In this document: positions 24,519 to 41,689 of the stretch, in pieces
Numbering within the stretch: position 1 is the first letter of the stretch
How the letters are laid out: each line of letters opens with the position of its first letter
Source of the DNA: a virus
Taxonomy: Duplodnaviria > Caudoviricetes
Strand: one strand, 5' to 3'
Virus record (IMG/VR): IMGVR_UViG_3300028888_000047
Coordinates: 128,001 to 192,000 of that record
Length of the DNA: 64,000 nucleotides
The notes under the pieces: model-generated
Databases searched by the model: none
Told to the model about the DNA's origin: nothing
The model's input: the letters and a program-made list of their open reading frames with translations, nothing else
Position numbers and translations under genes: made by a program

Positions 24519-24593
24519 TACTCCATACAGGATTCCAACCTGTGACCCAGGGTTTAGGAAACCCTTGCTCTAATGCTGCTGAGCTAATGGAGC
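24519..24593 (-). tRNA. tRNA-Arg(CCT), C19-G56 elbow variant
   Basis: AGGGT-TTCCTAA-ACCCT; D-loop ..GC.., T-loop TTGGAAT. Confidence 0.88.
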
Positions 24594-24703
24594 AAAAAAA
24601 ACATATTCACTGGGCTTAGCTTCCCGAAGAAGAAATGCGCGTAAAACCCATTGGACGGAACGTTACTCATCCTTTTCCGCATTTTTAAGTGGAATATGCT
24701 TTG

Positions 24704-24777
24704 AGCCTCCAGAGGGATTCGAACCCACGACCCCGAGATTACAAATCACGTGCTCTAGCCAACTGAGCTATGGAGGC
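24704..24777 (-). tRNA. tRNA-Thr(TGT)
   Basis: Canonical cloverleaf, loop TTTGTAA. Confidence 0.93.
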
Positions 24778-25088
24778 AAAATTATCTATTGTTTCACTAG
24801 TGGCGTACAACAGACAAAACGCCACTCTTCTCGTGAGTTACTCGGAGGATTTAATCAGACGCACCACCAATTTCCTCGAACCCGTGTTCATCTTTCTGGT
24901 AAGTGACCAACCCATCAAGCCTACAGGCAGTACTTGAGAAAATGCCCGCCCCTCAAGCAAAAATTCGAAGCGCTATGCATAATTGCGAGAGACTGTTATA
25001 CGTTTGCCTTCAATGGCTATGTTCGTCTTGTATGCTACAAATATACAAAAAATAGATATAAAAAAGAAATTTAAAATGTTAAATTTTG

Positions 25089-25220
25089 TTAAATATAATC
25101 TTCATTTCCACAACTATTACATATGGCTCTATCTGTCATCATCCCTGCTCTAACAGATACATTTCTACTGCCACATCTTTTGCAGATAAGTTCTCCATTT
25201 TTATAATCAAAGCCTTCCAT
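25089..25220 (-). CDS. 43-aa zinc-ribbon protein
   Basis: CKRCGS...CNSCG. Confidence 0.6.
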   Translation of the reverse strand: MEGFDYKNGELICKRCGSRNVSVRAGMMTDRAICNSCGNEDYI

Positions 25221-25434
25221 AAATATTTTTCTTTTAAAAAGGTAGGTACTTTATATAAAAAGATTAGTAAGTTGCATGATTTGCTAATCGACCATGTTCT
25301 AAACCTGGCTTCGCATGCATCACTTCAGCAATTCAGTTTAGACATATACGTTTTATATAGTTGCCTACCGGCAAAACCTACATACTTTGAGTGACGCTTG
25401 GCGACTCTCAGGGAATAGTAGGACTCAAATATGA

Positions 25435-25770
25435 CTATTCTAATATCTCAACAACTTTTCCAAATATATTATCCTTTGATATTGTACCATTTATACCACC
25501 ACGGTTATTGCCAATGAGATACCTATCACCACTTTTAACTGCTTGTATAAGGTGCAAGTAATAATGACCTTTAACTTTGCATAATACAATATTCTTTTTT
25601 TCAAGAACAGTTTCCTCATTAACGGGTTCACATATGACAGATTGACCGCTTTTTAAAATTGGAAGCATGCTGTTGCCATAGCCTGTTATTTTTCCATATA
25701 AACCATTTTTAAGATTTTCTGCACTTATTTTATTTTCTTTACCTTCAAAATCATATGAATATTCTGCCAT
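25435..25770 (-). CDS. S24/S26 peptidase-like protein
   Basis: GNSMLPILKSG...YYLHLI...GNN. Confidence 0.6.
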   Translation of the reverse strand: MAEYSYDFEGKENKISAENLKNGLYGKITGYGNSMLPILKSGQSVICEPVNEETVLEKKNIVLCKVKGHYYLHLIQAVKSGDRYLIGNNRGGINGTISKDNIFGKVVEILE

Positions 25771-25777
25771 ATTAAAT

Positions 25778-26026
25778 TTACCCTTTTATCTTAATAAGCG
25801 TATCATCCTCGTTGGCCTTTCTAATCCACCTCATAAGTAGCAGAGCCTTTTCTGTTACATTGAATGAAGCAGATTCGCCAACATCAGATTTGTTACTCAC
25901 ATCTATCTCTAATTGGTATTCAGTATTATCAACTGCAATTATTTTGTATACAGCAATGCCTCCTGCTAAAACAGATTGCAATTGAGCAATACCTTTTACC
26001 AATGGTTTAATGTCCTGCACTATCAT
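25778..26026 (-). CDS. Hypothetical protein
   Basis: ORF track. Confidence 0.6.
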   Translation of the reverse strand: MIVQDIKPLVKGIAQLQSVLAGGIAVYKIIAVDNTEYQLEIDVSNKSDVGESASFNVTEKALLLMRWIRKANEDDTLIKIKG

Positions 26027-26831
26027 TTGTTTCTTTTATTAATGTATTAGCAATATCAATATAATCCTTATTTATTTCAATGCCTATGAAATTTCTATTT
26101 GTCTTAATGGCTGCGATTGCTGTTGTTCCACCTCCCATAAATGGGTCTAACACTATATCACCTTCATTTGACCAAGATAATATATGCCTCAGTGGAAGTT
26201 CAAGAGGAAATACAGCTGGATGCTTTATTTGTTTTTCATTTACCTCAAATAATCTCTTGTTTCGAGCAACTGCCATATCCCATATCTGGTAATCTATCAT
26301 TTTATTACTGACGTGGTAGTTTATCTCTTTTCTACCTTTCTCGCCTCCCATTATCTTAACTGTAGAGGCATATAGTTTACCAGCTGATTTACAAGGTATC
26401 ATTATAGGATTGAATGTCTTAGGCCTCTTACCTTTAACAAAACAAAACATAAACTCAACACATCTTGTATATCTGGGCTGCCTTACCTGTGGCATAGGAT
26501 TCTTCTTCCTCCAAAACATATAATCGTTAAGGCTAAAACCGCATACATCCATAAAGTAAATCGCTTGTCTCATTGATGTACCACTTCTGCTACCGTTTTC
26601 AGTCTTATCGTCAACGTTCCATATAAGAACACCACCATCTTTCAAAACCCTGTATAATTCTCTTGCTATTGCTTCGAATTTATCCTTGCTCCAACAATCT
26701 GTACATACTCCATTGTACGTGCGTAGATTGTCATATGGTGGTGACGTAACGATTAAATCAATTGAGTTATCATCAATTTGTTTCAGCAACTCCTCTGAAT
26801 CGCCACAATAAATATTGTTTAAATCTAACAT
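26007..26831 (-). CDS. N4/N6 DNA methyltransferase (beta class)
   Basis: TSPPY, HPAVFP, DPFMGGGTT. Confidence 0.92.
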   Translation of the reverse strand: MLDLNNIYCGDSEELLKQIDDNSIDLIVTSPPYDNLRTYNGVCTDCWSKDKFEAIARELYRVLKDGGVLIWNVDDKTENGSRSGTSMRQAIYFMDVCGFSLNDYMFWRKKNPMPQVRQPRYTRCVEFMFCFVKGKRPKTFNPIMIPCKSAGKLYASTVKIMGGEKGRKEINYHVSNKMIDYQIWDMAVARNKRLFEVNEKQIKHPAVFPLELPLRHILSWSNEGDIVLDPFMGGGTTAIAAIKTNRNFIGIEINKDYIDIANTLIKETNDSAGH

Positions 26832-26846
26832 AAAATTGTCTTTTTG

Positions 26847-26923
26847 TGACCCTAGTAGGATTCGAACCCACGATGAAAAATCGGTTTAGAAGCGACCGCA
26901 TTCGACCACTCTGCCATAGGGCC
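26847..26923 (-). tRNA. Amber suppressor tRNA (anticodon CUA)
   Basis: GGCCCTA/TAGGGTC-A73; anticodon arm GTCGC-TTCTAAA-CCGAT (CTA at 26889-26887); T-arm GTGGG-TTCGAAT-CCTAC. Confidence 0.75.
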
Positions 26924-26950
26924 AATTGGCTGCATTTTTACAGCCATATA

Positions 26951-27241
26951 TTATTTTGAACCGACAAGTTTTAATTTCTTAAATAACCTATCATGTCCTA
27001 AAATAGCTAAAGATGTGGTTTTATTACCAAGGTCTGGTTCTTTAAATTCAGTATAACTTACCCCAAGAACAGATAACTTGTTTTTCCACTTGTTAACATC
27101 AGCACTCAAATAAATCAAGTACTCATTTTCCCATCCACTATTATGTTCAAGTAACCATTGTGCCACTGCGTGACCGCCTTGAACACAACCATATACCGCA
27201 TCAAGCGATTTATCAATCAATACGTATAACTTATTTTTCAT
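26951..27241 (-). CDS. Peptidyl-tRNA hydrolase II (Pth2)-like protein
   Basis: KLYVLI...L......VQGGHAVA...LIYL...F.EPDLGN.TT.LA. Confidence 0.7.
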   Translation of the reverse strand: MKNKLYVLIDKSLDAVYGCVQGGHAVAQWLLEHNSGWENEYLIYLSADVNKWKNKLSVLGVSYTEFKEPDLGNKTTSLAILGHDRLFKKLKLVGSK

Positions 27242-27539
27242 CTGAATCAGCGTATAAGTTATAGTATTTAATAACCTGGTTCTTGAAATAAGGAATAGCC
27301 TCAGATTCAGTTAAATCTCCTCCGGTATAAACAATTCTACCGTGATAAAGACCTTTCCAACAACGTTTTCTTACTTCGTCCTCAAGATATTTATCACGTT
27401 CTTCTCCAACTATTCTGTGTTTGAAGAGATAATATGCAACATAGAAATAATGTGCATGATAAGGTTTTTTAACTTCTTCTTTAAACTTTAAATACTGTTC
27501 CTTTGTGGTTGCTTTATTTGTAAATTGTAATTTTTCCAT
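27231..27539 (-). CDS. Hypothetical protein coupled to the Pth2-like gene
   Basis: Overlaps the Pth2-like start; its initiation region is sequestered by a 15-bp inverted repeat. Confidence 0.65.
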   Translation of the reverse strand: MEKLQFTNKATTKEQYLKFKEEVKKPYHAHYFYVAYYLFKHRIVGEERDKYLEDEVRKRCWKGLYHGRIVYTGGDLTESEAIPYFKNQVIKYYNLYADSDEK

Positions 27540-27547
27540 AATATAAA

Positions 27548-27744
27548 AAATTCTAGTATAATTATTTTTTTTGGCTTGGTTTTCGCCAGTGTTTTAAGCA
27601 ATTTATGTAAACTAAACATGTTGATGCACTTTCAGCACCATCATACCCACTTGCCTATGGGCGTATTATACTAGAATTTATATTTGGACTACGTATCCTC
27701 TTCAGCTACCAATGTTGGTCAGTAATCTACCAAAAACTATTCAT
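27548..27744 (-). promoter_or_regulatory. Amber-containing leader uORF plus sequestering hairpin (putative translational attenuator)
   Basis: ATG 27744: MNSFW*ITDQHW*LKRIRSPNINSSIIRP* (all three stops TAG); perfect IR 27665-27679 / 27548-27562. Confidence 0.6.
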
Positions 27745-27767
27745 AACTAATAAATATTAAATTATTA

Positions 27768-27843
27768 TGGGGGCAGTGAGGGAATCAAACCCACGTAAAC
27801 AAGTGCCACAAACTTGCGCCTAAGTCTCTCGGCCAACTGTCCC
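27768..27843 (-). tRNA. tRNA-His(GTG), A19-U56 variant
   Basis: G-1 present; CAAGT-TTGTGGC-ACTTG; T-loop TTTGATT. Confidence 0.88.
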
Positions 27844-27847
27844 ATAT

Positions 27848-27890
27848 TTAGGAAACATTTTTTTTCATATCTATTTTTGGCTGTTTCCTT
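27848..27890 (-). ncRNA. ACAGCAA-stem RNA #2 (minimal/degenerate)
   Basis: AAGGAAACAGCC...GTTTCCTA. Confidence 0.5.
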
Positions 27891-27899
27891 GTATTTCAG

Positions 27900-27973
27900 C
27901 GGTCCGTACGGGTAACAATCCCGTCATTTCCGCCGTGACAGGGCGGCGTCTTCATCGTGCAGACCCACGGACC
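27900..27973 (-). tRNA. tRNA-Asp(GTC), non-canonical elbow
   Basis: CCGCC-CTGTCAC-GGCGG; T-loop ATTGTTA. Confidence 0.85.
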
Positions 27974-27980
27974 ATTTTTT

Positions 27981-28028
27981 TTAGGTAACCGTTTGTATAA
28001 CCTTACATTGTTTGCTGTTAGTTACCTT
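27981..28028 (-). ncRNA. ACAGCAA-stem RNA #3
   Basis: AAGGTAAC-TAACAGCAA...GTTACCTAA (compensatory T-A pair). Confidence 0.75.
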
Positions 28029-28032
28029 GTTG

Positions 28033-28105
28033 AGCAGGTTTCTCGATTCGAACGAGTCTTTGATACAGGATTGTATCACGTGCTAAGCCATTACACCAGA
28101 ACCGC
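28033..28105 (-). ncRNA. tRNA-like RNA lacking a normal anticodon loop (Gly-like body)
   Basis: D-arm and T-arm intact; anticodon arm TGATACA-ATCC-TGTATCA (7 bp, 4-nt loop); U73. Confidence 0.65.
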
Positions 28106-28113
28106 AAAAAAAA

Positions 28114-28172
28114 TTAGGAAGCATTTTATATATTACCACAAACCATTAAAAAAACTTGCTGTTAGCTTCCTT
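28114..28172 (-). ncRNA. ACAGCAA-stem RNA #4
   Basis: AAGGAAGC-TAACAGCAA...GCTTCCTAA; cargo contains TTGTGGT (His-loop-like). Confidence 0.75.
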
Positions 28173-28184
28173 GCTTTTTTATAA

Positions 28185-28362
28185 GCGTAGCAGGGTTATC
28201 ACTTTTCACCCAATAGCGACGATTCACACGTTAAACGTATCTGCATACACTAGGACACAGCATTTAGTCCTATCTGCGCACTGAGGCTTTAAGTCCACTC
28301 CGTTTTTGGGGCTTCCTACTAAACAGCAACAAGTGCTGCGTAGAGGAATGACACTTTCTGCT
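28185..28362 (-). ncRNA. Unidentified structured ncRNA
   Basis: Closed by GCAG..GTGTCA / TGATAAC..CTGC; internal TAGGAC...GTCCTA hairpin. Confidence 0.45.
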
Positions 28363-28365
28363 TTG

Positions 28366-28447
28366 TTGCGGGGGTGAGATTTGCACTCACGAACCACATG
28401 GGACCGGCTTATGAGACCGGCGAATTTGACTACTTTTCTACCCCGCT
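28366..28447 (-). tRNA. tRNA-Met(CAT), initiator-like (1:72 mismatch), extended variable region
   Basis: AGCGGGG/CCCCGCA; CCGGT-CTCATAA-GCCGG; T-loop TGCAAAT. Confidence 0.82.
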
Positions 28448-28450
28448 ATA

Positions 28451-28738
28451 TTATTTCAATAATTCTTTTAACTTTTTCAGTTCCTCAATTTTCTTATTGA
28501 TTGATTCGCAATCAAATGTATTTTCAAAATCTTCTTTTACAAGGTTATTTAACAAAACATCAACCTCATGCTTAACATCTTCATACAGTTCAACATAATA
28601 TTTTTGTCCAATAATCTTTTGTGCTTCAACTTTTTCATATCCTGCCTCTACAAGATTTTTATAAAGCTCTTTTCTAAAATCAGCGTCTAAAATTTTTCCC
28701 ATAACTTGTATTTTTAATAAACTAACGCAAATATACAA
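28451..28738 (-). CDS. Hypothetical protein (likely start MGKIL ~28702)
   Basis: Promoter at ~28727 lies within the extended ORF. Confidence 0.6.
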   Translation of the reverse strand: MYICVSLLKIQVMGKILDADFRKELYKNLVEAGYEKVEAQKIIGQKYYVELYEDVKHEVDVLLNNLVKEDFENTFDCESINKKIEELKKLKELLK

Positions 28739-28892
28739 AAAATATTTGTAAAAAAGAAATTTTTAATGAAAAAAAATCCTAAACTCTTCCCCATAGCTTT
28801 CGAACATAGTTAAACTAACTGACCGGCGACACAAAACTTGGAGGCCATCCCAATGAGGTCACGTTGCTTTCAGTGTTAGGGTTTTTTTATTG

Positions 28893-29262
28893 TGGACCTA
28901 GGCGGAGTCGAACCGCCGTCTTGCTCTGCGTTCCATAGAAATTTATACAAGCTTTTAGAGAATTTGGTGAGTGGTTTGCGCCACCCGTCCTCTCTGCCAC
29001 CCTATTTTGAGAAAATAGGGAAAACATGGGGGATGACCGGAATCATCAGTTCCACCATCTTAACGTACAACGTTAAGAAAAAATTACTAGGATGTTCTGT
29101 TCCTAAGAGCCTAGTCTCTCGGCCTATCGCTTACGCAGCCATTGCATAAGCATAAGCAGGAGAATCTACATTCTCGCCGTTTATGTTTTTTTTGCTATTT
29201 CTAGTGTATGCCCACTGCTTGATTTCTACCAAACTACAGCCAATCTATACCATTTTAGGCCC
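28893..29262 (-). ncRNA. ssrA: tmRNA; tag peptide (A)GENVDSPAYAYAMAA
   Basis: GGGCCTA/TAGGTCC-A acceptor with G3.U70; T-arm GGCGG-TTCGACT-CCGCC; resume context ATAAAC-GGC GAG AAT...GCT GCG TAA. Confidence 0.93.
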
Positions 29263-29275
29263 GTTTAATATAAAA

Positions 29276-29354
29276 TAGGGAACTATCTGTTCAACGTTTT
29301 CAAATTTCAAGTCTGATGTTTTAACATAAATAATAACTTGCTGTGAGTTCCCTT
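29276..29354 (-). ncRNA. ACAGCAA-stem RNA #5 carrying a Ser(UGA) anticodon stem-loop
   Basis: AAGGGAAC-TCACAGCAA...TCAGA-CTTGAAA-TTTGA...GTTCCCTA. Confidence 0.78.
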
Positions 29355-29360
29355 GTTTAG

Positions 29361-29435
29361 TGGAGCCAGTGGGGCTCGAACCCACGACCCTCTGAATGCA
29401 AATCAGATGCTCTAGCCAAACTGAGCTATGGCCCC
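29361..29435 (-). tRNA. tRNA-Ala(TGC)
   Basis: G3.U70, loop TTTGCAT. Confidence 0.95.
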
Positions 29436-29485
29436 TTGGAGTGAGGTTTTTAACGGTGGCCTCACGGCGCCGGTATTAAAATACG

Positions 29486-29559
29486 TGGTGCTAGTAGGAC
29501 TCGGACCTACGACCGCTTGAATATCAGTCAAGAACTCTAACCAACTGAGCTATAGCACC
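29486..29559 (-). tRNA. tRNA-Ile(GAT)
   Basis: CTTGA-CTGATAT-TCAAG. Confidence 0.9.
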
Positions 29560-29563
29560 ATTG

Positions 29564-29592
29564 TTAGGAAACCATTTAAATACGTTGCTCTA
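29564..29592 (-). pseudogene. 3' remnant of an ACAGCAA-stem permuted-tRNA RNA (#6)
   Basis: TAGAGCAACG...GTTTCCTAA, matching the 3' end of RNA #7. Confidence 0.45.
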
Positions 29593-29605
29593 TAATATTA
29601 ATTTG

Positions 29606-29679
29606 TGTTGATGGAGGGACTTGAACCCCCGGTCTCAACGGTATCAGCGTTGCGCTTTAACCAACTAAGCTACACCAAC
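29606..29679 (-). tRNA. tRNA-Ile(GAT)
   Basis: CAACG-CTGATAC-CGTTG. Confidence 0.9.
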
Positions 29680-29682
29680 ATT

Positions 29683-29808
29683 TTAGGAAACATTTTATTA
29701 ACGTTGCTCTACCATCTGAGCTAAATGGAAATTTTACTTCCCACTACCGGATTCGAACCGGCGACCCACGGATTACAAATCATTTTCAACTTTGCTGTTA
29801 GTTTCCTT
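29683..29808 (-). ncRNA. ACAGCAA-stem RNA #7: circularly permuted tRNA mimic (YrlA-like architecture, Thr-derived)
   Basis: Order: stem5', TTTGTAA, T-arm (GCCGG-TTCGAAT-CCGGT), acceptor closed by a loop (AGTGGGA..TTCCATT), D-arm (GCTC-AGATGGTA-GAGC), stem3'. Confidence 0.85.
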
Positions 29809-29815
29809 GCTTGTG

Positions 29816-29891
29816 TAGGATATGAGGGATTCGAACCCACGAACCTTCTGGGTGTAAACCAGACGCTCTAAACCAGCTGAGCTAATATCCT
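29816..29891 (-). tRNA. tRNA-Val(TAC)
   Basis: TCTGG-TTTACAC-CCAGA. Confidence 0.92.
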
Positions 29892-30246
29892 ATGCCTCCT
29901 AATGTCCTATTTTATAATCTCCCTAGGAAAAGAGATAACCGTATCAAGGAACGGTGTGCTACTTGTACTTGGCAGTGGCGACATTATAAACCTTATAGTT
30001 TGTCACAGGACCTTTCAAGTTAATACGTAAGTTAAATAAAGTCTTTTTCCTCCCTACTAACAGATGTTCGAATTAACTACTTGGCCGACGTTCGTTAAGA
30101 AAAAGCAAACCTCACTACAAGCAGAGCAATAGCGTATGTAATCATTTCCACGTTTTGAAATCATCTGACGTTTCAATTCTTACCCCTATGATACCTAATG
30201 ACCGATACATTAAATAACCGTTCTAAGTCTGACTCTCTGTGACTTG

Positions 30247-30322
30247 TGGTGGGTAGGACCGGAGTTGAACCAGTTTAGCCGGATTTTCAGTCCGGTGCAT
30301 ACACCACGTCTGCCACCTACCC
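30247..30322 (-). tRNA. tRNA-Phe(GAA), encoded CCA
   Basis: CCGGA-CTGAAAA-TCCGG. Confidence 0.92.
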
Positions 30323-30482
30323 ATTGTTTGTGACGTTTTAATTGGCGGAGTGCGCCACCTTACTCTCCATTTTAGACCAGCTTATCGCTTTGTCCACCAG
30401 CTATAGGCTACTGCGCCTACTGCTGCACCAAAAATAAATGTCAACATAATTTTAAAATACTTTGAATTAAACATATAGTTAA

Positions 30483-30906: not shown

Positions 30907-30919
30907 ACAATGTATTTTG

Positions 30920-30992
30920 TGCGCCCACTGGGATTCGAACCCAGGACCCCAAGATTAAAAGTCATGTACTCTGCCTGCTGAGCTATAGGCGC
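30920..30992 (-). tRNA. tRNA-Lys(TTT)
   Basis: Loop CTTTTAA. Confidence 0.92.
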
Positions 30993-31011
30993 ATTTTTAG
31001 TAAAAAAATAG

Positions 31012-31083: not shown

Positions 31084-31090
31084 AATATTG

Positions 31091-34882: not shown

Positions 34883-34912
34883 CTGTTTTAACTCGATTGG
34901 TTAAACATATAG

Positions 34913-34987
34913 TACTTCCGGCAAGACTCAAACTTGCGACTTCCAGATTCGTATTCTGGCGTTCTAATTCAACTGAACTACGGAAGC
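34913..34987 (-). tRNA. tRNA-Arg(ACG), A19-U56 variant
   Basis: CCAGA-ATACGAA-TCTGG; T-loop TTTGAGT. Confidence 0.88.
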
Positions 34988-34993
34988 AAATTT

Positions 34994-35170: not shown

Positions 35171-35176
35171 TGATTG

Positions 35177-35213: not shown

Positions 35214-35935
35214 CATGCTACTCTATGTTACCATAGCTAAAATTATCTTTTCCGCGAGCCTTGATTATATGCACGCGACCGAATTCCACAGTTATTTACT
35301 TCTTGAATCTGATAATTTTATTGTAGTCTGGAGCATATCATTACCATATTGAAATTCTTGCAAGTAATCAACCTCTATTCTGCTATACATCAATGTCATT
35401 CAGCCATAGATTATGATAATTTCAACTTAGGCATTCTTATCAGACACGTCTGAATGGAATGTGAGGGTATTCAATGTATTTCCCTCATTTCTCCTCTATA
35501 CTCTCTACACATTTATGAAAATAAATTGAAAATTGACTATGTTATACCATCGTCTTTTTACATACTTTTGGATATTCTGTATGTTTTTTCAACTTATAAA
35601 TGAGTTAGTAGCGTTTGCATCTACTCTCGCCTGATGCTCATATTTATGCTAAGTGTTTCAACTTAGCGGCTGTCTACTATATAAGAATATAACTCATTTA
35701 CAATGCGAACTAAAATTTTGCGCAAATACCATATTTAGTTTCCTCAATTTGTTATCTCATATATGATAAATTTTAGAAGCATTAATTTCAATTTAGCACG
35801 GTATAATCCTTACACATTATTGGTTAGTGTATCACGCCATTCAGTGCCTTGACTAAATCGTAATCTTCTTCAGGTAGGATTTCCACCGTTTTATGGAGAT
35901 TCTACTATGGGATTTCTCGCCATAGCATCCAATTT
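35214..35935 (-). mobile_element. Group I intron (tRNA anticodon type) that has lost its contiguous 5' exon
   Basis: 5' AAATTGGA (IGS); P AAAACGGTGGAAAT; Q ATACCGTGCTAA; R GTGTAGAGAGTATA; S GATATGCTCCAG; terminal G before the tRNA 3' exon. Confidence 0.75.
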
Positions 35936-35967
35936 AGGTTTTACCATCTACAGGTGTTTTTTTATTG

Positions 35968-36017
35968 TGATGGGACTGGGACTCGAACCCAGATGGACTT
36001 ATTAGGTCCGTCAGTTT
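35968..36017 (-). pseudogene. Orphan 3' half of a long-variable-arm tRNA
   Basis: ACTGA, V-arm (GGAC..GTCC), CTGGG-TTCGAGT-CCCAG, TCCCATC-A; no 5' half upstream. Confidence 0.6.
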
Positions 36018-36032
36018 ATTTTCCTATTTTTG

Positions 36033-36106
36033 TGGTTCCAGTGGGACTCCAACCCACAACCGCAGTCTTAGAAGGGCCGTGCTCTATGCTGTTGAGCTAT
36101 GGAACC
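36033..36106 (-). tRNA. tRNA-Arg(TCT), C19-G56 variant
   Basis: Loop CTTCTAA; T-loop TTGGAGT. Confidence 0.87.
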
Positions 36107-36114
36107 GATTGGTA

Positions 36115-36912
36115 TTAAACCATATAGAATTTATCTATTTTTTCATTATACCTATAAAACTTACACCCTAGTTCTTCTATTATTTCTTGTTGCCTTATGA
36201 TGTCTCTGTCGCATAAAATATTGTTGTAGACATCAATATAATGCCTTGGTTCATCATATTCAAACGCAATATTTAATTTTTCATCGTATCCATCTAAAAA
36301 ATATCCACGTACTTGTTTTTCTCCGCCATTTTTAGCATGTACAAGATGCCAACCATTCTTTTCATTTAAGAAATCAATGTATTTGCACCCTTTTTCAGAA
36401 AAATGCTCCCCAAATTTTCCGTTTCCAATACTTTTGATGTAATCTATCATTTTTTCCCTTAGAACCTTCTTTGTGGCATTAGTGTGAGGCTTGCCAATAA
36501 CCGTAAATTTGCCATTTTCTAAAGATTTTCTACGAGCATTTGCTTGTTTAAGAATCCGTTCATCGTCCAACATCGTTTTACCTTTGTTCCATACATTGTG
36601 TCCATTACTTTTACCTCCGTTTCCTTTACGATTTGGGCATTTTACTTTGTTTGGATTTAGTTCGCATGCTTTTTCGTGAATACTTAAACACCCAGCATTA
36701 GAAACTACTTTTCCGCAAAATTTACATGTATAAGTATTATCAATACTTGGGTCGTGCTGTTTTACGTTTTTTCTGGCATTTTCTAAATTCTCTAAATGCT
36801 CTTTAATTTTTGGATTATTAGGACAATATGTTACGTGTCCAGCTAATTTACGTTTATCGTTAAACTCTTTTCCACAATGTCTGCAATAATATATTTTTTC
36901 ATTCTCAGCCAT
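36115..36912 (-). CDS. Homing-type endonuclease: zinc fingers, NUMOD3-like motif and Vsr/DUF559-like nuclease domain
   Basis: CRHCGK..H...C, CKFCGK..H...C, GKPHT, YFLDGYD...IAFEYDE..H. Confidence 0.75.
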   Translation of the reverse strand: MAENEKIYYCRHCGKEFNDKRKLAGHVTYCPNNPKIKEHLENLENARKNVKQHDPSIDNTYTCKFCGKVVSNAGCLSIHEKACELNPNKVKCPNRKGNGGKSNGHNVWNKGKTMLDDERILKQANARRKSLENGKFTVIGKPHTNATKKVLREKMIDYIKSIGNGKFGEHFSEKGCKYIDFLNEKNGWHLVHAKNGGEKQVRGYFLDGYDEKLNIAFEYDEPRHYIDVYNNILCDRDIIRQQEIIEELGCKFYRYNEKIDKFYMV

Positions 36913-36978
36913 ATCTATAATGTATTTTATAATAAATATCAGCCAAGTTTGAATAGTTCAGCGGATAGAGCAAAAAAA

Positions 36979-36999
36979 TATCCCCTGAGCTACGGGTGC
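36979..36999 (-). pseudogene. 5' fragment of the split tRNA-Arg
   Basis: GCACCCG-TAGCTCAG-GGGATA; GCACCCG pairs with CGGGTGT at 35178-35184. Confidence 0.65.
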
Positions 37000-37229
37000 A
37001 TCATATATTTTATTGTTTTATTGTTGAGTCTTTCTTAGTGCCATAATCATCATGTAAGAATGGCTCTTTAGGGTCCACCATCTTAGCAATTCTAATTTCA
37101 TGAAAGAAAATCACAAGTGCAACAAAAATAATTATTGCAGAAAAGACCAACAGAAAATTTCCCATATCTATTCTTTATTTATCATTAAACAATACAAATA
37201 TACAAAAAAATATTTAAAAAAAGAAATGT

Positions 37230-37526
37230 TTAACGTAATTTAACACCATAAAATTTCCAACAATAATCAGCGTAATTCATAAGATTGGAATATAGAGTTT
37301 TCCATTCTTCATATGATGGTCTGCCAAAATCTCCATTAGAAGGTATGCTCTTTGCGCGAGCAGCATTACCCGGTTGCATTCTCATTGCTTTTCCTTGTTC
37401 TGGCGTTAAGCCATTAGCTGCATCAGTTTCTTCCCAAGAATGCCATCCATTAGGCGCATTATCTATTTCACAAACTTCTCTTATTACCTTGTTTATTGAT
37501 TCTGTAATGATTTTATTGATATTCAT
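37230..37526 (-). CDS. Hypothetical protein with MNI.KIITE.IN N-terminal motif
   Basis: Shares its N-terminus with 58302..58775. Confidence 0.65.
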   Translation of the reverse strand: MNINKIITESINKVIREVCEIDNAPNGWHSWEETDAANGLTPEQGKAMRMQPGNAARAKSIPSNGDFGRPSYEEWKTLYSNLMNYADYCWKFYGVKLR

Positions 37527-37553
37527 AATGTTTACTTTTTTTCATTATAAATA

Positions 37554-38330
37554 TCATGGATTTATCGTTTCATTTATTCTTTTCAATGAATATTTAACTT
37601 GTTCTTCAGATATTTCACTTCCAACATATATCGGACATTTTTCAGAAAGAATGCATCCTACCGCTGTTGTACCAGTTCCCATAAATGGGTCGTATACGAT
37701 AAAGTCTTTCGAACCAGCATATAGATTTAGTAATTTTACTACTAATTCACTACTGAATGTGGCTTGATTTAACTTATTGGTTTTTTCATCGTTATTTTTA
37801 GCTTCAACAAAGTTATAGAAAACATTGTAATATGTCTGCTTTGTTTTTTCACTAACTGATGCAACTCCTTTATCTATGAAAAAATCGTTAGTCATTCCAT
37901 CCTTTGCAAATACAAACACATATTCCCAAGTTCTACTAAGTCTACATTTGTTTGCCGGAAACGGTAAGCCACTACTTTTTTTCCAACATATAGTATCAAC
38001 CAATCTCCAATTGGTCTTTTCAACTATCTCAGTTACTAACTTATATGGAAGTGCTGGGTTTTCAATGCTATACCCAAAGTTATATAACACAACCCCATTA
38101 TCAACAACAATCCTATTAAATTCATCGAAAACGTTTTTTGTAAATTCTAGGTATTCTTCCTCTGTCTTCCAATCCTTATAGACATCATATCTACCACTAT
38201 CAGCATAACCGCCTTTACGCTTTGTCATATTGTAAGGAGGACTGGTCAATATAAGATTTATAGACTTGTCCTCCATACGTTTCATAGTGTCGAAACAATC
38301 CTCATTGTATATTGCGTTGAACTCAATCAT
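37554..38330 (-). CDS. N4/N6 DNA methyltransferase
   Basis: TSPPY, DPFMGTGTT. Confidence 0.92.
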   Translation of the reverse strand: MIEFNAIYNEDCFDTMKRMEDKSINLILTSPPYNMTKRKGGYADSGRYDVYKDWKTEEEYLEFTKNVFDEFNRIVVDNGVVLYNFGYSIENPALPYKLVTEIVEKTNWRLVDTICWKKSSGLPFPANKCRLSRTWEYVFVFAKDGMTNDFFIDKGVASVSEKTKQTYYNVFYNFVEAKNNDEKTNKLNQATFSSELVVKLLNLYAGSKDFIVYDPFMGTGTTAVGCILSEKCPIYVGSEISEEQVKYSLKRINETINP

Positions 38331-38446
38331 AAGTTACTTTGGCTCTTATTATTTATATAAACAAAATTGTCATATGAATATTTATCGCCATGTATTTTTT
38401 TAGCGTTTTCAACAAAGTCTTTTTTAGTTTTTCTTGGTTGCCACAT
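38327..38446 (-). pseudogene. Truncated homing-endonuclease DNA-binding repeat remnant
   Basis: 39 aa, KTKKDFVENAKKIHGDKYSY...YINN, typical of phage HEG repeats. Confidence 0.5.
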
Positions 38447-38451
38447 ATATT

Positions 38452-39003
38452 TTATTCAATTTTTTCATCCACAACTGCTATGGTATCATTATGCATTGAA
38501 CCATGAGCAACAAGAAGAATCTCCTTAATCTCACATCCGTATTTCTTGCCAATGCCATTTGTATTCCATCCAAATGTGAGACATACACCACCAGGTTTAA
38601 GTATTCTACTAATTTCTTTCTTTATATCAGTCCAAAACGCTATTGATGTTGACTGATAATCAACTGTCTTACCCAACTTCTTATAACACACCTTAACCTG
38701 GGTAGGAGAGAATGGCGCATCGAAGAGAACCATATCTACAGAATTGTCATCAAACATCTTTAAAAAGTCCTTTGCGTCCAAATGATAATCAGTATCATAT
38801 TGTGGGTCAATATCATTTGTTATCGTTCCATTTTTATTGGAGTTTGCAAATGGGTCTAAAATGATAGCATTTTCTGGTAATTTAGCTTTGTATTTATCGA
38901 TTAGTTCTTTAAATGGCTTTATTGAAAATGTGTTTTTATTGGGCATTGCCCATGTTCTCCTAAGTATTACTCCATCTTCATCGATTGTTTTAAATTCAGG
39001 CAT
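38452..39003 (-). CDS. Adenine-specific DNA methyltransferase-like protein
   Basis: ILDPFAN, VLFDAPFS, RILKPGG. Confidence 0.75.
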   Translation of the reverse strand: MPEFKTIDEDGVILRRTWAMPNKNTFSIKPFKELIDKYKAKLPENAIILDPFANSNKNGTITNDIDPQYDTDYHLDAKDFLKMFDDNSVDMVLFDAPFSPTQVKVCYKKLGKTVDYQSTSIAFWTDIKKEISRILKPGGVCLTFGWNTNGIGKKYGCEIKEILLVAHGSMHNDTIAVVDEKIE

Positions 39004-39034
39004 TAAATTTAATAATTTACATATATTATTTTAG

Positions 39035-39116
39035 TACACCCGGTGAGACTCGAACTCACACGCCTCGCGACACTACATCCTTAGTGTAGCCTGTCTACCA
39101 ATTCCAGCACGGGTGC
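39035..39116 (-). tRNA. tRNA-Leu(AAG)
   Basis: CTACA-CTAAGGA-TGTAG, V-arm, A73. Confidence 0.88.
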
Positions 39117-39155
39117 TTTTATATAATATAGTAAATTAAAAGATGGAGTCAATAA

Positions 39156-39584
39156 TTAGCAGCCTCCTCCTCCACATCTTCCACGAGAAAAAATTCCGCC
39201 ACAGCCTCCTCCGGTGCCACAAGATGCGCTTCTATTTCCGCTTCCACCACATCCGCCATATGACTGACGAGTATCAAAAAAACTTCCTCCCCCACAATCG
39301 CCATACGAAGGTGCTACACGTTGTCCGCAGCTACCGTATGTTTTTCCGCCGCAACTACCTAAAATTGGACTTCCATATACAGGTCTATATTCGTCTCTAT
39401 GGTTTCCGTGTGGCATTACTCCTAAATATGGGTCAATATCAGGTTCTTCATTATCATCTGTTGGATAATCAAATTCTCCTGAATTGTCTCTTCTAAATAC
39501 TATACCACGTCTTTCCAATGCTTCTCTTAAAGCTTCTGACAAACCATTGATGTCATCTGAATCAATAAATAGTAACTTACTCAT
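39156..39584 (-). CDS. Gly/Cys-repeat protein, candidate radical-SAM RiPP precursor
   Basis: Acidic N-terminal half, then seven xCG repeats (mostly GxCGG) and a terminal Cys. Confidence 0.6.
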   Translation of the reverse strand: MSKLLFIDSDDINGLSEALREALERRGIVFRRDNSGEFDYPTDDNEEPDIDPYLGVMPHGNHRDEYRPVYGSPILGSCGGKTYGSCGQRVAPSYGDCGGGSFFDTRQSYGGCGGSGNRSASCGTGGGCGGIFSRGRCGGGGC

Positions 39585-39590
39585 AGTTAT

Positions 39591-40643
39591 TTAAATTGTT
39601 GTTATTTTAACTAAATTTTCTTTAAGTTGTTTTTTAAGTGTTTCTTTTATTTCTTCCAACTGTGATTCATTATTTATTATTTTTGAAAATTCTGTATGTT
39701 CTGTAAGGTTTATTCTATCAGTATGTATGTCTGCACAATAATATTTTATTACATTACCATCCTTATTCCAATCAACATAAACCTCTATTTCTGTATCTTC
39801 AATATCAGGAGTTTTGAATATCCAATTATTGAATTCATCGTCATTATTGAAATCCCAATCCTTGTATACATTTCCATCAGGGGTAATTATAACATCATTG
39901 ATATATGTTTTATTACCCATTTTAACAGATGAAAACATCAATCCTCTATGATATGAAATAATACAATTATCTGCCTCAAAAGTTGAAGAGTGACATACTA
40001 AACAGCCTCCACTTCCACTATACATATATTCTTCGCTGAGAAGAGTTTCAATCTCGTCACGGGCCTTTAATGTTGTTGTATCAAGCTTTGTATAATCAGC
40101 CCTTAGATTTATAAGCCTCTTTTCGCTTCCCCATTTCTTAACAAACTCTTTAAACTCATCAAATGAGAAATTTTTATTGATAACCGTATTAATTCTTATC
40201 GGCTTTTCAATTCTGTCTATTAACTTCAAATCAGCCACGCCACTAAATTCGTGACCAATATGTCTTGATATATTAATACCGTGTATCTTTGGCTCAGAAT
40301 TGATATAATCAATTATTTCATCAATGTTCTTAACCAATGGCAATGTTGTGTTAATAAAACACCTTTTATTCATCGCCGATATAATCCTTTTTGTTTCATC
40401 AAGATTAGCAAAAGGCTCGCCACCGGTTAATACATATTCTACCACATCGTAGTTATTGTTTATTTTATTGATTTGTTCTATAATTTTATTCGGATTTAAT
40501 TTGATGTTCTTATACATCTTCTTTGATGTACAAAAAGGACAATTGTTGTCGCAATCAAATGGAACAAATATAGTACAAGCCAAGTTTCTTCTTCCAACTA
40601 AGTATTTCATATTTAAAAAATTAATATTTGTCCAAAGATACAC
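39591..40643 (-). CDS. Radical SAM enzyme
   Basis: CDNNCPFC, TGGEP, additional GGCLVC. Confidence 0.88.
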   Translation of the reverse strand: MYLWTNINFLNMKYLVGRRNLACTIFVPFDCDNNCPFCTSKKMYKNIKLNPNKIIEQINKINNNYDVVEYVLTGGEPFANLDETKRIISAMNKRCFINTTLPLVKNIDEIIDYINSEPKIHGINISRHIGHEFSGVADLKLIDRIEKPIRINTVINKNFSFDEFKEFVKKWGSEKRLINLRADYTKLDTTTLKARDEIETLLSEEYMYSGSGGCLVCHSSTFEADNCIISYHRGLMFSSVKMGNKTYINDVIITPDGNVYKDWDFNNDDEFNNWIFKTPDIEDTEIEVYVDWNKDGNVIKYYCADIHTDRINLTEHTEFSKIINNESQLEEIKETLKKQLKENLVKITTI

Positions 40644-40692
40644 AAAAAAATCAATATGAACAAATATTTTTAGTTAAAAAAAGTTAAATGAA

Positions 40693-41091
40693 TTAAGGCT
40701 TTTTAAACACTTCAGCCCCATCGAATAAATCTCCAACATATAGTTTATTAACATCAATACTTTGCTTGATGCCATCATATTTAAACATTATGTTGAGATT
40801 ATCATCCTTTACATTAACAGTAACTTCTGACCAATCGTCTGCTGCAAGGTCATCTTGCTGCGGGGACCATCCAGTCATTACATTTTTTTGGAGTTTATCG
40901 TATTTGCATAAAACCTGTTCGGCCTTTACTTCTCCACCATTTACATCAGCGAGCATTTTTAATATTGGGTCTTTACACCATTCTGATTTAACGCTTGCCT
41001 TTGGCTTGAGCCAAATGAATATTCCACTCCAAGATATTCTTGAAACAAAACCACCTTCCTCCAAAATCTTGTAACATTCTCCAAATTTCAT
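40693..41091 (-). CDS. DUF2829 / Tad2-like anti-defence nucleotide sponge
   Basis: MKFG.....L..G..V.R..W...FI...W.P.Q.DL.A.DW. Confidence 0.75.
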   Translation of the reverse strand: MKFGECYKILEEGGFVSRISWSGIFIWLKPKASVKSEWCKDPILKMLADVNGGEVKAEQVLCKYDKLQKNVMTGWSPQQDDLAADDWSEVTVNVKDDNLNIMFKYDGIKQSIDVNKLYVGDLFDGAEVFKKP

Positions 41092-41494
41092 ATCTTTTTT
41101 GCTTTAATGAATAATTCTTTTCATATTACAAATATACAAAAAAAAGTTAAAAAAAAGAAATAATAAAAACAAAAAAATTGCACCATTTCTGATGCAATTA
41201 ACGCCCTAACAACGCTCCTATGGAATTACCCAATGGTCTGTCACCTTCTTCTTTGCATAAAGCAGTCGAAGCATTTACAAGGTTCAAGGGCTTTGGTTTG
41301 GCGTTAACCTACTGTAGCCCCTTTTTCGGTTTTATCATTTAATTTGAGTGTGTTGCTACACCAAAGAAACATATTGATTACCCTCTGCATGCTAGAGGTA
41401 GGCTATTAACTCCTACGTGGCTTCCGTTTATGAAGAATTGTTTCACTCTTTGAAAGATGGACACTTCCAATCCTACTTCCTCAAATTAATGTTG

Positions 41495-41567
41495 AGCGGA
41501 TGACCAGGTACCATCTGGCAACCTTTGCCTTGGCAAGGCAACGCTCTAGCAATTGAGCTACACCCGC
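41495..41567 (-). tRNA. tRNA-Gly(GCC), rewired elbow
   Basis: TTGCC-TTGCCAA-GGCAA; D-loop AATTGCTA; T-loop ATGGTAC. Confidence 0.85.
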
Positions 41568-41616
41568 GTGGAGCCGGCACTGTGATGCAACAGCGGTTCA
41601 CCCGGCATGTTATTAG

Positions 41617-41689
41617 AGCAGATGACCGGGTACCATCCGGCAACCTATGCCTTGGAAGGGCATCGCTCTAGCAATTGAGCTACATCTGC
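41617..41689 (-). tRNA. tRNA-Gly(TCC), rewired elbow
   Basis: ATGCC-CTTCCAA-GGCAT; same D- and T-loops as the GCC copy. Confidence 0.85.

What the first reader, a model, noticed from the sequence alone, without database searches (positions are those of the whole stretch)
24519..41689. Systematic compensatory rewiring of the tRNA elbow (G19-C56 and U54-A58)
Seen: Arg(CCU), Arg(UCU), Gly(GCC) and Gly(UCC) have D-loop GC and T-loop G56 (C19-G56). Arg(ACG), His and Asp have D-loop GA and U56 (A19-U56). Both Gly tRNAs and Asp also swap U54/A58 to A54/U58 (T-loops AUGGUAC, AUUGUUA), and the initiator-like Met has UGCAAAU. Paired changes in seven tRNAs argue for function, not decay. Inference: escape from elbow- or T-loop-recognising host nucleases or modification enzymes, or self/non-self marking that spares phage tRNAs from a phage-encoded tRNase.
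Basis: partly seen in the sequence, partly recalled or inferred. Interest (0 to 1): 0.72.

Follow-up and report, generated by a model that had tools for sequence, protein, structure and literature searches.

The report
Phage tRNAs with swapped elbow pairs
Eight of this rumen-type jumbo phage's 36 tRNA genes replace the almost universal G19-C56 "elbow" base pair with another Watson-Crick pair through matched changes in two loops; this shape-preserving rewiring was absent from a bacterial control sample, recurs in phages, and is partly shared with the arginine tRNAs of the likely Bacteroidales hosts.

Summary
Seven window tRNAs, plus Leu(CAA) elsewhere in the 317-kb phage, carry C19-G56 (4) or A19-U56 (4). 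Both Gly tRNAs and Asp also invert U54/A58. One Met-like tRNA has A18/G55.

Position 19, assigned without looking at the T-loop, was the Watson-Crick partner of every non-C56 base: 44 of 44 tRNAs across this phage, 17 related jumbo phages and unrelated viral contigs. No G-U wobbles were seen.

Orthologs prove compensation. Two His tRNAs differ only at positions 19 and 56. Arg(CCU) occurs as C-G, U-A, G-C and A-U in the clade.

Frequency of non-C56 elbows:
- this phage: 22%
- relatives: 5.8%
- viral background: 1.6%
- bacterial control: 0 of 292

The trait is not purely viral. Chromosomal A19-U56 tRNA-Arg (ACG, CCG, UCG) occurs in 104 of 201 Bacteroidales genomes. Phage T5 tRNA-Ile also has A19-U56 and is annotated as functional.

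The nuclease-escape idea is untested. It now has a concrete candidate: published Schlafen/Cash antiviral tRNases that cut at the T-loop UUC motif.

This scan has found related rewired elbows, mostly A18/G55, on other DNA before.

The parts
24518..24593 (-). tRNA-Arg(CCU), elbow pair C19-G56 (D-loop AGCAGCAUUA, T-loop UUGGAAU), A20 kept
   Evidence: ARAGORN. Rfam RF00005 57.7 bits. The 91%-identical ortholog in relative G001 has U19-A56, and G016 has G19-C56.
27769..27843 (-). tRNA-His(GUG) with encoded G-1 (27843) opposite C73, elbow pair A19-U56 (T-loop UUUGAUU)
   Evidence: (41.7 bits). Orthologs in G011, G012 and G018 are A-U; those in G006, G007 and G014 are G-C. G012 and G006 differ only at positions 19 and 56.
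27899..27973 (-). tRNA-Asp(GUC): A19-U56, A54/U58, also C15/G48 and G8/G14. All stems are perfect and the Asp identity set is present (G73, G10, GUC, C38).
   Evidence: ARAGORN. No Rfam match up to E = 0.01. No close homolog in the relatives (best 68%).
28365..28447 (-). Met(CAU) tRNA-like gene, 83 nt, 12-nt variable region, A18/G55 in place of G18/U55 (D-loop AAGUAGUCAAA, T-loop UGCAAAU), G19-C56 kept
   Evidence: 45.7 bits. Conserved at 76-82% identity, with the same loops, in G002, G008, G011, G012 and G013.
29485..29559 (-). tRNA-Ile(GAU) with C55 (T-loop UCCGAGU) and a normal GG D-loop
   Evidence: G004 has the same variant. C55 is also native to Bacteroidales tRNA-Gly(GCC).
34912..34987 (-). 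tRNA-Arg(ACG), elbow pair A19-U56 (D-loop AGUUGAAUUA, T-loop UUUGAGU), the host-like state
   Evidence: 58.2 bits. Same loops in G012. Chromosomal Bacteroidales tRNA-Arg (ACG, CCG, UCG) carry A19-U56 in 104 of 201 genomes.
36032..36106 (-). tRNA-Arg(UCU), elbow pair C19-G56 (D-loop AACAGCAUA, T-loop UUGGAGU)
   Evidence: 54.7 bits. G004 Arg(UCU) is also C-G, G016 and G017 are A-U, and others are G-C.
41494..41567 (-). tRNA-Gly(GCC), C19-G56 plus A54/U58 (D-loop AAUUGCUA, T-loop AUGGUAC)
   Evidence: 54.9 bits; the Rfam consensus GGU aligns to GCU. G004 and G018 Gly(GCC) have A54/U58 with G19-C56.
41616..41689 (-). tRNA-Gly(UCC), C19-G56 plus A54/U58, paralog of the previous gene
   Evidence: 58.9 bits. 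G001 Gly(UCC) has A19-U56.
336..1766 (-). Context: phage-encoded tRNA nucleotidyltransferase (CCA-adding enzyme), an elbow-docking maturation enzyme
   Evidence: phrog_2244, E = 1e-63.
54959..56245 (-). Context: phage tyrosyl-tRNA synthetase, used here to find the related jumbo phages
   Evidence: phrog_9270, E = 6e-141. 18 related viral contigs at 41-88% identity.

Best explanation
These are working phage tRNA genes whose elbow was rebuilt by compensatory double substitutions.

Shown:
- Whenever T-loop position 56 is not C, D-loop position 19 is its Watson-Crick partner.
- The same holds in orthologs that differ at nothing else.
- Three tRNAs also invert the U54/A58 pair.
- Non-G-C elbows almost always keep G57, the base that stacks on the pair.
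- Selection therefore acts on elbow geometry, not on the letters.

Established knowledge:
- The main elbow readers dock on the flat outer face of the 19-56 pair by stacking and shape. These are the RNase P S-domain, the 23S L1 stalk and A-site finger, and the CCA enzymes. Any Watson-Crick pair should fit.

Shown for tolerance:
- The probable host order uses A19-U56 in its own chromosomal tRNA-Arg(CGN).
- T5 tRNA-Ile (A19-U56) is annotated as an active suppressor in E. coli.

Inferred driver, my best guess:
- Base identity at the elbow is only weakly constrained for phage tRNAs.
- Large phage populations, with host tRNAs as back-up, let them cross the deleterious single-mutant valley that bacterial tRNA genes rarely cross.
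- Tolerance differs by tRNA. Arg, His and Gly are the most permissive.
- This phage lineage has accumulated an unusually large number of such swaps.
For: - 44 of 44 non-C56 tRNAs are complementary at position 19, assigned blind to the T-loop, with zero G19-U56 wobbles.
- MI(19,56) = 0.232 bit against at most 0.038 bit for other loop pairs.
- G012 and G006 His differ only at positions 19 and 56.
- Arg(CCU) of this phage and of G001 are 91% identical but C-G versus U-A.
- The 19-56 pair is polymorphic in 7 of 54 ortholog clusters. Helical pairs vary in 15-36 clusters and G53-C61 in 4. So the pair is constrained but not fixed, as a relaxed rather than a diversifying regime predicts.
- A-U, reachable by transitions, makes up 35 of the 44 swaps.
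- G57 is present in 43 of 44 swapped elbows against 79% otherwise (p = 9e-4).
- Native A19-U56 tRNA-Arg occurs in 104 of 201 Bacteroidales genomes, often in tandem copies on megabase contigs.
- T5 tRNA-Ile1 has A19-U56 and is annotated as convertible to an amber suppressor.
- An A19-U56 double mutant was processed normally by a protein-only RNase P (PMC4797305).
- Function is likely. Stems are intact. G-1:C73 is present in His. Identity sets are present in Asp, Gly and Arg.
- These genes are the only phage copies of their anticodons. They read about one fifth of the phage's codons, including AGA and AGG, which make up 78% of Arg codons.
- Elbow readers dock by stacking (PMC4810234).
Against:
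- Pure drift does not predict the strong amino-acid bias: Arg 15/88, His 5/29 and Gly 5/60, against 0/305 for Lys, Ser, Tyr, Phe, Asn and Cys.
- Pure drift also does not predict the excess of transversion-type C-G swaps in this phage (4 of 8, against 2 of 36 elsewhere).
- In the closest ortholog pair, 5 of 7 differences lie in the two elbow loops.
- The phage invests heavily in tRNA repair, with RtcB, two RNA ligases and a CCA enzyme. That fits an active conflict over tRNA.
- The host assignment to Bacteroidales is probable, not proven. Best tRNA identities are only 81-85%.
Confidence: 0.5

Rival explanations
1. Counter-defence. The swaps are selected because they erase the U54-U55-C56 sequence that base-specific T-loop readers need. 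Candidates are antiviral T-loop tRNases of the Schlafen/Cash type, and possibly TrmA or TruB. The matching D-loop change is the structural repair. The Arg/His/Gly bias would mark the tRNAs that the host nuclease depletes.
For: - A published antiviral tRNase class cuts mainly in the T-loop, 5' of U55, at a UUC motif. Single U54 or U55 substitutions abolish cleavage (PMC13462974).
- 11 of this phage's 36 tRNAs lack UUC, through five different routes (A54, G55, C55, U56, G56). The fraction is 9.1% of viral, 0.7% of bacterial and 4.8% of Bacteroidales tRNAs.
- SLFN_AlbA_2 domains occur in 52 of 61 Bacteroidales genomes, up to 22 per genome, against 4 of 14 control genomes.
- The phage carries RtcB, two ligases, a CCA enzyme and TyrRS.
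- There is precedent for loop changes that evade anticodon nucleases (PMC10264068).
- The hard-to-reach C-G and U-A states exist, and elbow states turn over between close relatives.
Against: - No nuclease is linked to this host or to these tRNAs. The Bacteroidales Schlafen-domain proteins are uncharacterised, and their catalytic residues were not checked.
- Cash acts broadly on tRNAs, yet 25 of the 36 phage tRNAs keep UUC.
- The importance of C56 itself for cleavage was not reported.
- The host's own tRNA-Arg carries UUU.
- G-C remains the commonest state, and the pair varies less than ordinary helix pairs.
Confidence: 0.3
2. Host-matching or synthetase tuning. The elbow state is set by compatibility with host enzymes that touch the D-loop side of the elbow. 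ArgRS reading A20 is the main candidate. Phage Arg tRNAs follow or explore what the Bacteroidales ArgRS accepts, and other tRNAs follow their own enzymes.
For: - tRNA-Arg is the most affected family (15/88, odds ratio 7.5, p = 1.6e-7).
- All three Arg tRNAs of this phage are swapped, and all keep A20 directly after position 19.
- Host CGN-reading tRNA-Arg natively has G18-A19-A20 with U56.
- ArgRS recognition of A20 in the D-loop is established knowledge.
Against: - In the two host genomes examined, Arg(CCU) and Arg(UCU) are canonical, while the phage versions are C-G.
- His, Gly, Asp and Leu synthetases are not known to read positions 19 or 56.
- Phage Arg(ACG) is only about 74% identical to host tRNA-Arg, so it is not a recent capture.
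Confidence: 0.12
3. The swapped genes are decaying tRNAs, or non-decoding decoys, that are not used in translation.
For: - Asp has no Rfam match up to E = 0.01, and His scores only 41.7 bits.
- Arg(UCU) has a C-A mismatch in its anticodon stem.
- The genome holds other tRNA-like RNAs that earlier notes read as mimics.
Against: - Compensation is perfect at positions 19-56.
- The genes are conserved over relatives whose TyrRS is only 67-82% identical.
- Helices show compensatory changes.
- Anticodon loops and identity elements are intact.
- No canonical duplicate of these anticodons exists in the phage.
Confidence: 0.05

Closest known systems
Canonical bacterial and phage elongator tRNA (Rfam RF00005) with the G18-Psi55, G19-C56 and T54-A58 elbow
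   Same: Cloverleaf, 7-nt loops, identity elements and an L-shape locked by a Watson-Crick pair between the D-loop and the T-loop. Seven of the eight swapped genes pass the Rfam gathering score.
   Different: The "virtually universally conserved" G19 and C56 (PMC4117946; PMC4810234) are replaced by C-G or A-U. Three tRNAs invert U54/A58. One Met-like tRNA has A18/G55.
Phage T5 tRNA-Ile1(GAU), record AY543070 28210-28286
   Same: A phage tRNA with A19-U56 (D-loop AGCGAUCUA, T-loop UUUAAAU), annotated as active: it works as an amber suppressor after an anticodon change.
   Different: T5 has one such gene among the 23 detected. This phage has 8 of 36, including C-G pairs and 54/58 inversions. T5 infects E. 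coli.
Chromosomal tRNA-Arg (ACG, CCG, UCG) of Bacteroidales with A19-U56
   Same: The same G18-A19-A20 D-loop and UUUGA T-loop as the phage Arg(ACG).
   Different: These are cellular genes. In the two genomes examined the variant is restricted to CGN-reading Arg tRNAs, and only the A-U form was seen. Identity to the phage gene is only about 74%.
Phage tRNAs that evade tRNA-targeting defences through anticodon-loop changes (van den Berg et al., eLife 2023, PMC10264068)
   Same: Phage-encoded tRNAs that differ from host tRNAs at a conserved, nuclease-readable loop, in a phage that also carries tRNA-repair enzymes.
   Different: That work concerns the anticodon loop and does not mention the T-loop, D-loop or elbow. 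Resistance of the tRNAs studied here has not been tested.
T-loop-cutting prokaryotic Schlafen (Cash) tRNases (Nat Commun 2026, PMC13462974)
   Same: A defence enzyme whose target, the UUC motif at positions 54-56, is exactly the motif altered here.
   Different: It was characterised from a Chloroflexi type III CRISPR locus. No link to this host or phage is shown, and phage tRNA escape is not discussed in the paper.
A18/G55 and C19-G56 "alternative elbow" tRNAs noted earlier in this scan (CPR bacteria, other jumbo phages, tRNA arrays)
   Same: Strict D-loop/T-loop covariation in intact tRNA genes. The A18/G55 class is present here too, in the Met-like gene at 28365-28447 and in 15 unique tRNAs among the relatives.
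   Different: Here the dominant swap is at the 19-56 pair. All four Watson-Crick states occur within one phage clade, and one state is also found in chromosomal tRNA-Arg of the probable host order.

Membership tests
tRNA (Rfam RF00005) | Cloverleaf fold scoring above the family gathering threshold (29 bits) | tested here: met
   Bit scores: Gly(UCC) 58.9, Arg(ACG) 58.2, Arg(CCU) 57.7, Gly(GCC) 54.9, Arg(UCU) 54.7, Leu(CAA) 48.5, His 41.7, Met-like 45.7. The exception is Asp, which has no match up to E = 0.01 although ARAGORN folds it with perfect stems.
tRNA (Rfam RF00005) | Conserved G18-G19 in the D-loop and U54-U55-C56 in the T-loop | tested here: not met
   Position 19 is C or A, and position 56 is G or U, in 8 tRNAs. 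A54 occurs in 3, G55 in 1 and C55 in 2. This departure is the finding itself. The tertiary pair is kept as a Watson-Crick pair.
tRNA (Rfam RF00005) | Amino-acid identity elements that fit the anticodon | tested here: met
   His has G-1 opposite C73. Asp has G73, G10, GUC and C38. Gly has U73, G1-C72 and C2-G71. Arg has A20 and C35. The identity rules are taken from E. coli (established knowledge).
tRNA (Rfam RF00005) | Maturation, CCA addition and aminoacylation in vivo | not testable with these tools
Compensatory (covarying) tertiary pair 19-56 | Changes on both sides that keep Watson-Crick pairing across homologs, beyond controls | tested here: met
   44 of 44 non-C56 tRNAs are complementary at position 19. 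His alignment A2 has AU:4 and GC:3, 100% paired. Arg alignment A1 has CG:3, UA:2, AU:1 and GC:1, plus 2 rows mis-aligned by MAFFT. MI is 0.232 bit against at most 0.038 bit.
Phage tRNAs that evade tRNA-targeting host nucleases | The phage tRNA differs from host tRNAs at the nuclease's recognition site | tested here: inconclusive
   The UUC motif is lost in 11 of 36 phage tRNAs, against 4 of 83 in two Bacteroidales genomes. However, Arg(ACG) matches the host state, and the relevant nuclease is unknown.
Phage tRNAs that evade tRNA-targeting host nucleases | The host encodes a nuclease that cuts the canonical site, and the phage tRNA resists it | not testable with these tools
   The only evidence is domain presence: SLFN_AlbA_2 in 52 of 61 Bacteroidales genomes. 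Activity and specificity are unknown.
Self-marking against a phage-encoded tRNase | The phage encodes a tRNase that reads the elbow or T-loop | tested here: not met
   No SLFN_AlbA_2 domain was found in the phage. Other nuclease families were not searched.

The most novel reading that the evidence does not exclude
T-loop and elbow rewiring is a general phage counter-defence. Phage tRNAs shed the U54-U55-C56 signature through five routes (A54, G55, C55, U56, G56) to resist T-loop-cutting antiviral tRNases such as the Schlafen/Cash class. Schlafen-type domains are widespread in Bacteroidales. Matched D-loop changes keep the shape that RNase P and the ribosome read. The Arg/His/Gly bias would then reveal which tRNAs such nucleases deplete. 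The A19-U56 arginine tRNAs of Bacteroidales could be the cellular side of the same conflict.
Probability: 0.3. Interest if true: 0.8.

Novelty: new variant of a known kind. Interest (0 to 1): 0.55.

Why it matters
G19-C56 is treated as a near-invariant of tRNA.

This case shows that the pair behaves as an ordinary covarying Watson-Crick pair once selection on its letters is lifted or reversed:
- All four Watson-Crick states occur within one phage clade.
- One pair of orthologs differs at these two bases only.
- A whole bacterial order uses A19-U56 in its arginine tRNAs.

That has three consequences:
1. It separates what the elbow's readers need (shape) from what is merely frozen (sequence).
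2. It warns that covariance models under-score such tRNAs. Asp is missed entirely by the Rfam model.
3. It gives natural matched pairs of tRNAs for testing T-loop-specific enzymes. These include TruB, m5U54 methyltransferases, CCA enzymes and the newly described T-loop-cutting antiviral nucleases.

If the swaps prove protective, they would be a second route of tRNA-based counter-defence, alongside anticodon-loop changes.

Tried and rejected
- Megablast of 20 kb of the tRNA island against cultured phages gave no match.
- The radical-SAM protein inside the island found no relatives in viral contigs. TyrRS was used instead.
No read-laying run was made.
- The Rfam model alignment could not place position 19 in the GG-less Arg D-loops (posterior about 0.5). 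Ortholog comparison was used instead.
- MAFFT mis-aligned two shorter D-loops in A1, producing two false "unpaired" cells at 19-56.
- Literature searches for G19-C56 or A19-U56 together with phage found no prior description of phage elbow covariation.
- The phage has no TruB, TrmA-type or Schlafen-domain gene. A phage-encoded T-loop enzyme as the reason for the swaps was therefore dropped.
- Recent capture of host tRNA-Arg was rejected. Best identity is about 74%.
- T5 tRNA-Asp shares G8/G14 with this phage's Asp but not the C15-G48 or elbow changes. The fourth row of alignment A3 was a wrongly chosen region and is ignored.
- The 8-14 statistics were too noisy to use.

Full report
**What the window is.** The window is bases 128001-192000 of a 317-kb IMG/VR virus record, CheckV completeness about 95%. 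Its G+C content is 34%. ARAGORN finds 28 tRNA genes and a tmRNA in the window, all on the minus strand, and 36 tRNAs in the whole genome. The phage also encodes:
- a CCA-adding enzyme (336-1766)
- a TyrRS (54959-56245)
- a metallophosphoesterase
- RtcB
- two Rnl-type RNA ligases

No TruB, TrmA-type or Schlafen-domain gene was found.

- Arg(CCU), Arg(UCU), Gly(GCC) and Gly(UCC) have G18-C19 in the D-loop and G56 in the T-loop.
- Arg(ACG), His and Asp have G18-A19 and U56.
- Both Gly tRNAs and Asp have A54 and U58.
- The Met-like gene at 28365-28447 has T-loop UGCAAAU together with an A18 D-loop.
- An eighth swapped tRNA, Leu(CAA) with A19-U56, lies outside the window at genome 231389-231473.

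The Rfam tRNA model fixes the T-loop numbering. For the Gly genes it aligns consensus GGU to GCU. For the Arg genes the model cannot place the GG-less D-loop, so position 19 rests on length-matched orthologs.

**It is true covariation.** I assigned position 19 by a rule that ignores the T-loop: the base after the first G at D-loop index 3 or later. I then tabulated position 19 against position 56 in four sets.

| Set | Non-C56 tRNAs | Watson-Crick at 19-56 |
|---|---|---|
| This phage | 8 of 36 | all |
| 17 related jumbo phages found through TyrRS | 24 of 412 unique | all |
| Unrelated viral contigs fetched with a canonical D-arm pattern | 12 of 771 | all |
| Bacterial contigs fetched with the same pattern | 0 of 292 | none to test |

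- No G19-U56 wobble appears anywhere.
- Mutual information between positions 19 and 56 is 0.232 bit, against at most 0.038 bit for any other D-loop x T-loop pair tested.
- The enrichment in this phage is significant against every set: p = 6e-7 against the viral set and p = 1e-8 against the bacterial set.

**Orthologs show the compensation directly.**
- The His tRNAs of relatives G012 and G006 differ at exactly two bases, positions 19 and 56: A-U versus G-C.
- This phage's His is 99% identical to that of G011. Both are A-U.
- This phage's Arg(CCU), C-G, is 91% identical to that of G001, U-A. Five of the seven differences lie in the two elbow loops, and the other two form a compensatory acceptor pair.
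- Across the clade, Arg(CCU) occurs as C-G, U-A, G-C and A-U. Arg(UCU) occurs as C-G, A-U and G-C.

**How labile is the pair?** In 54 ortholog clusters of the clade:
- 19-56 is polymorphic in 7
- ordinary helix pairs are polymorphic in 15-36
- G53-C61 is polymorphic in 4

G-C remains preferred, but the pair is not frozen. Swapped elbows keep G57 in 43 of 44 cases, against 79% otherwise. The swaps are strongly biased by amino acid: Arg 15/88, His 5/29 and Gly 5/60, against none in 305 Lys, Ser, Tyr, Phe, Asn and Cys tRNAs.

**The trait is not purely viral.**
- Two Bacteroidales genomes gave 83 unique tRNAs. Two of them, Arg(ACG) and Arg(CCG), have A19-U56.
- A specific pattern (TGAATAGARY, a gap, then GTTTGARTC) hits 104 of 201 Bacteroidales genomes, with only one hit to the reversed control. 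The hits are always Arg(ACG), Arg(CCG) or Arg(UCG), often in tandem copies on megabase contigs.
- The A19-U56 state of the phage Arg(ACG) is therefore host-like, not a non-self mark.
- A pattern for C19-G56 hit only 1 of 201 genomes. That hit lies in a dense six-tRNA array that looks phage-derived and also holds a Thr tRNA with A19-U56.
- The cultured phage T5 has one A19-U56 tRNA, Ile1. Its record annotates it as active after anticodon replacement.
- Host assignment to Bacteroidales is probable, based on earlier notes, shared traits and best tRNA identities of 81-85%. It is not proven.

**Function.**
- The swapped genes have intact stems and identity elements. His has an encoded G-1 opposite C73.
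- They are the only phage copies of their anticodons.
- They read about a fifth of phage codons, including AGA and AGG, which make up 78% of Arg codons.
- Asp is the extreme case. It has A19-U56, A54-U58, C15-G48 and G8/G14 together, perfect stems and no Rfam match up to E = 0.01.

**Mechanism.** The outer face of the 19-56 pair is read by stacking and shape. The readers are the RNase P S-domain, the L1 stalk, L5, the A-site finger and the CCA enzymes (PMC4810234). An A19-U56 double mutant is processed normally by a protein-only RNase P (PMC4797305). Any Watson-Crick pair should therefore serve, which explains why only compensated states are seen. What drives the excess in phages is inferred, not shown.

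- **Best guess (0.5): relaxed identity constraint.** Large phage populations, with host tRNAs as back-up, let phage tRNAs cross the deleterious single-mutant valley. Tolerance differs by tRNA.
It now has a concrete candidate. Prokaryotic Schlafen/Cash tRNases cut mainly in the T-loop at a UUC motif, and single U54 or U55 substitutions abolish cleavage (PMC13462974). Supporting points:
  - Eleven of the 36 phage tRNAs lack UUC, against 9.1% of viral, 0.7% of bacterial and 4.8% of Bacteroidales tRNAs.
  - Schlafen-type domains occur in 52 of 61 Bacteroidales genomes.
  - The phage carries a tRNA-repair kit.
- **Against the rival:**
  - No nuclease is linked to this system.
  - 25 of the 36 tRNAs keep UUC.
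  - The host's own Arg tRNAs carry UUU.
- **A third reading (0.12): synthetase tuning.** It is prompted by the Arg bias and by A20 lying next to position 19.

**Novelty.** The searchable literature describes neither elbow covariation in phage tRNAs nor the Bacteroidales tRNA-Arg variant. This scan has reported related rewired elbows on other DNA: A18/G55 in jumbo phages and CPR bacteria, C19-G56 in a CPR bacterium, and T5 tRNA-Ile. New in this window:
- the high density of 19-56 swaps
- all four Watson-Crick states within one clade
- the two-base ortholog pair
- the A19-U56 state in chromosomal tRNA-Arg of the probable host order

I rate it a new variant of a known kind, of moderate to good interest.

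Noticed in passing
L370-L381, L348, L359 (Bacteroidales genomes G020-G220): Chromosomal tRNA-Arg(ACG), Arg(CCG) and Arg(UCG) with A19-U56 (D-loop ..CUGAAUA, T-loop UUUGARU) occur in 104 of 201 Bacteroidales genomes sampled. They are often in tandem copies. One genome holds a canonical Arg(CCG) beside an A-U Arg(UCG).
   Followed up: partly
Host loci from G019 and G020; relative G001 L139:1160-1233: Bacteroidales tRNA-Gly(GCC) natively has C55 (T-loop UCCGAGU), so it cannot carry pseudouridine 55. The phage relative G001 has the same variant, as do this phage's Ile(GAU) at 29485-29559 and Leu(UAG) at genome 230521-230605.
   Followed up: no
L382 (G043:C48:55267-58316): A dense six-tRNA array (Thr, Ile, Asn, Glu, Gly, Met in 1.6 kb) inside a Bacteroidales MAG. 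Thr has A19-U56 and Gly(UCC) has C19-G56. It looks like a prophage or a binned phage fragment.
   Followed up: partly
window 26846-26923 (-): A tRNA with anticodon CUA (amber suppressor type, canonical elbow, 50.4 bits) lies in the tRNA island. Whether TAG is read through or recoded in this phage was not examined.
   Followed up: no
window 28892-29262 (-): A phage-encoded tmRNA (Rfam RF00023, 47.9 bits; tag peptide GENVDSPAYAYAMAA) sits among the tRNA genes.
   Followed up: no
window 19543-19632, 20502-20587, 43523-43594 (-): Odd tRNA-like genes: a 90-nt Met(CAU) and an 86-nt Trp(CCA), both with long variable arms, and a 72-nt gene with a 6-nt anticodon loop.
   Followed up: no
window 27899-27973 (-); L292:18578-18654 (T5): The Asp tRNA has G8 and G14 in place of U8/A14, and C15/G48 in place of G15/C48. 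T5 tRNA-Asp shares G8/G14 but not the other changes.
   Followed up: partly
window 27769-27842 (-) and alignment A2: An A3/C70 mismatch in the His acceptor stem is conserved in this phage, G011 and G018, while the neighbouring 4-69 pair covaries (C-G to U-A). The mismatch appears to be selected.
   Followed up: no
Bacteroidales genomes G020-G080: SLFN_AlbA_2 (Schlafen-type) domains occur in 52 of 61 genomes, up to 22 copies per genome, against 4 of 14 control genomes. Their functions are unknown.
   Followed up: partly
L178 (Acidobacteriota MAG contig, bacterial control set): A dense array of more than ten tRNAs, all with G8 instead of U8. It is probably a mobile or phage-like tRNA array inside the "bacterial" control.
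   Followed up: no
relatives L140-L168: The A18/G55 class (D-loop ..UAGU.., T-loop UGCAA) occurs in 15 unique tRNAs of the clade (Met, Leu(UAG), Tyr, Arg, Lys). It occurs in 11 of 771 viral and 1 of 292 bacterial tRNAs.
   Followed up: partly
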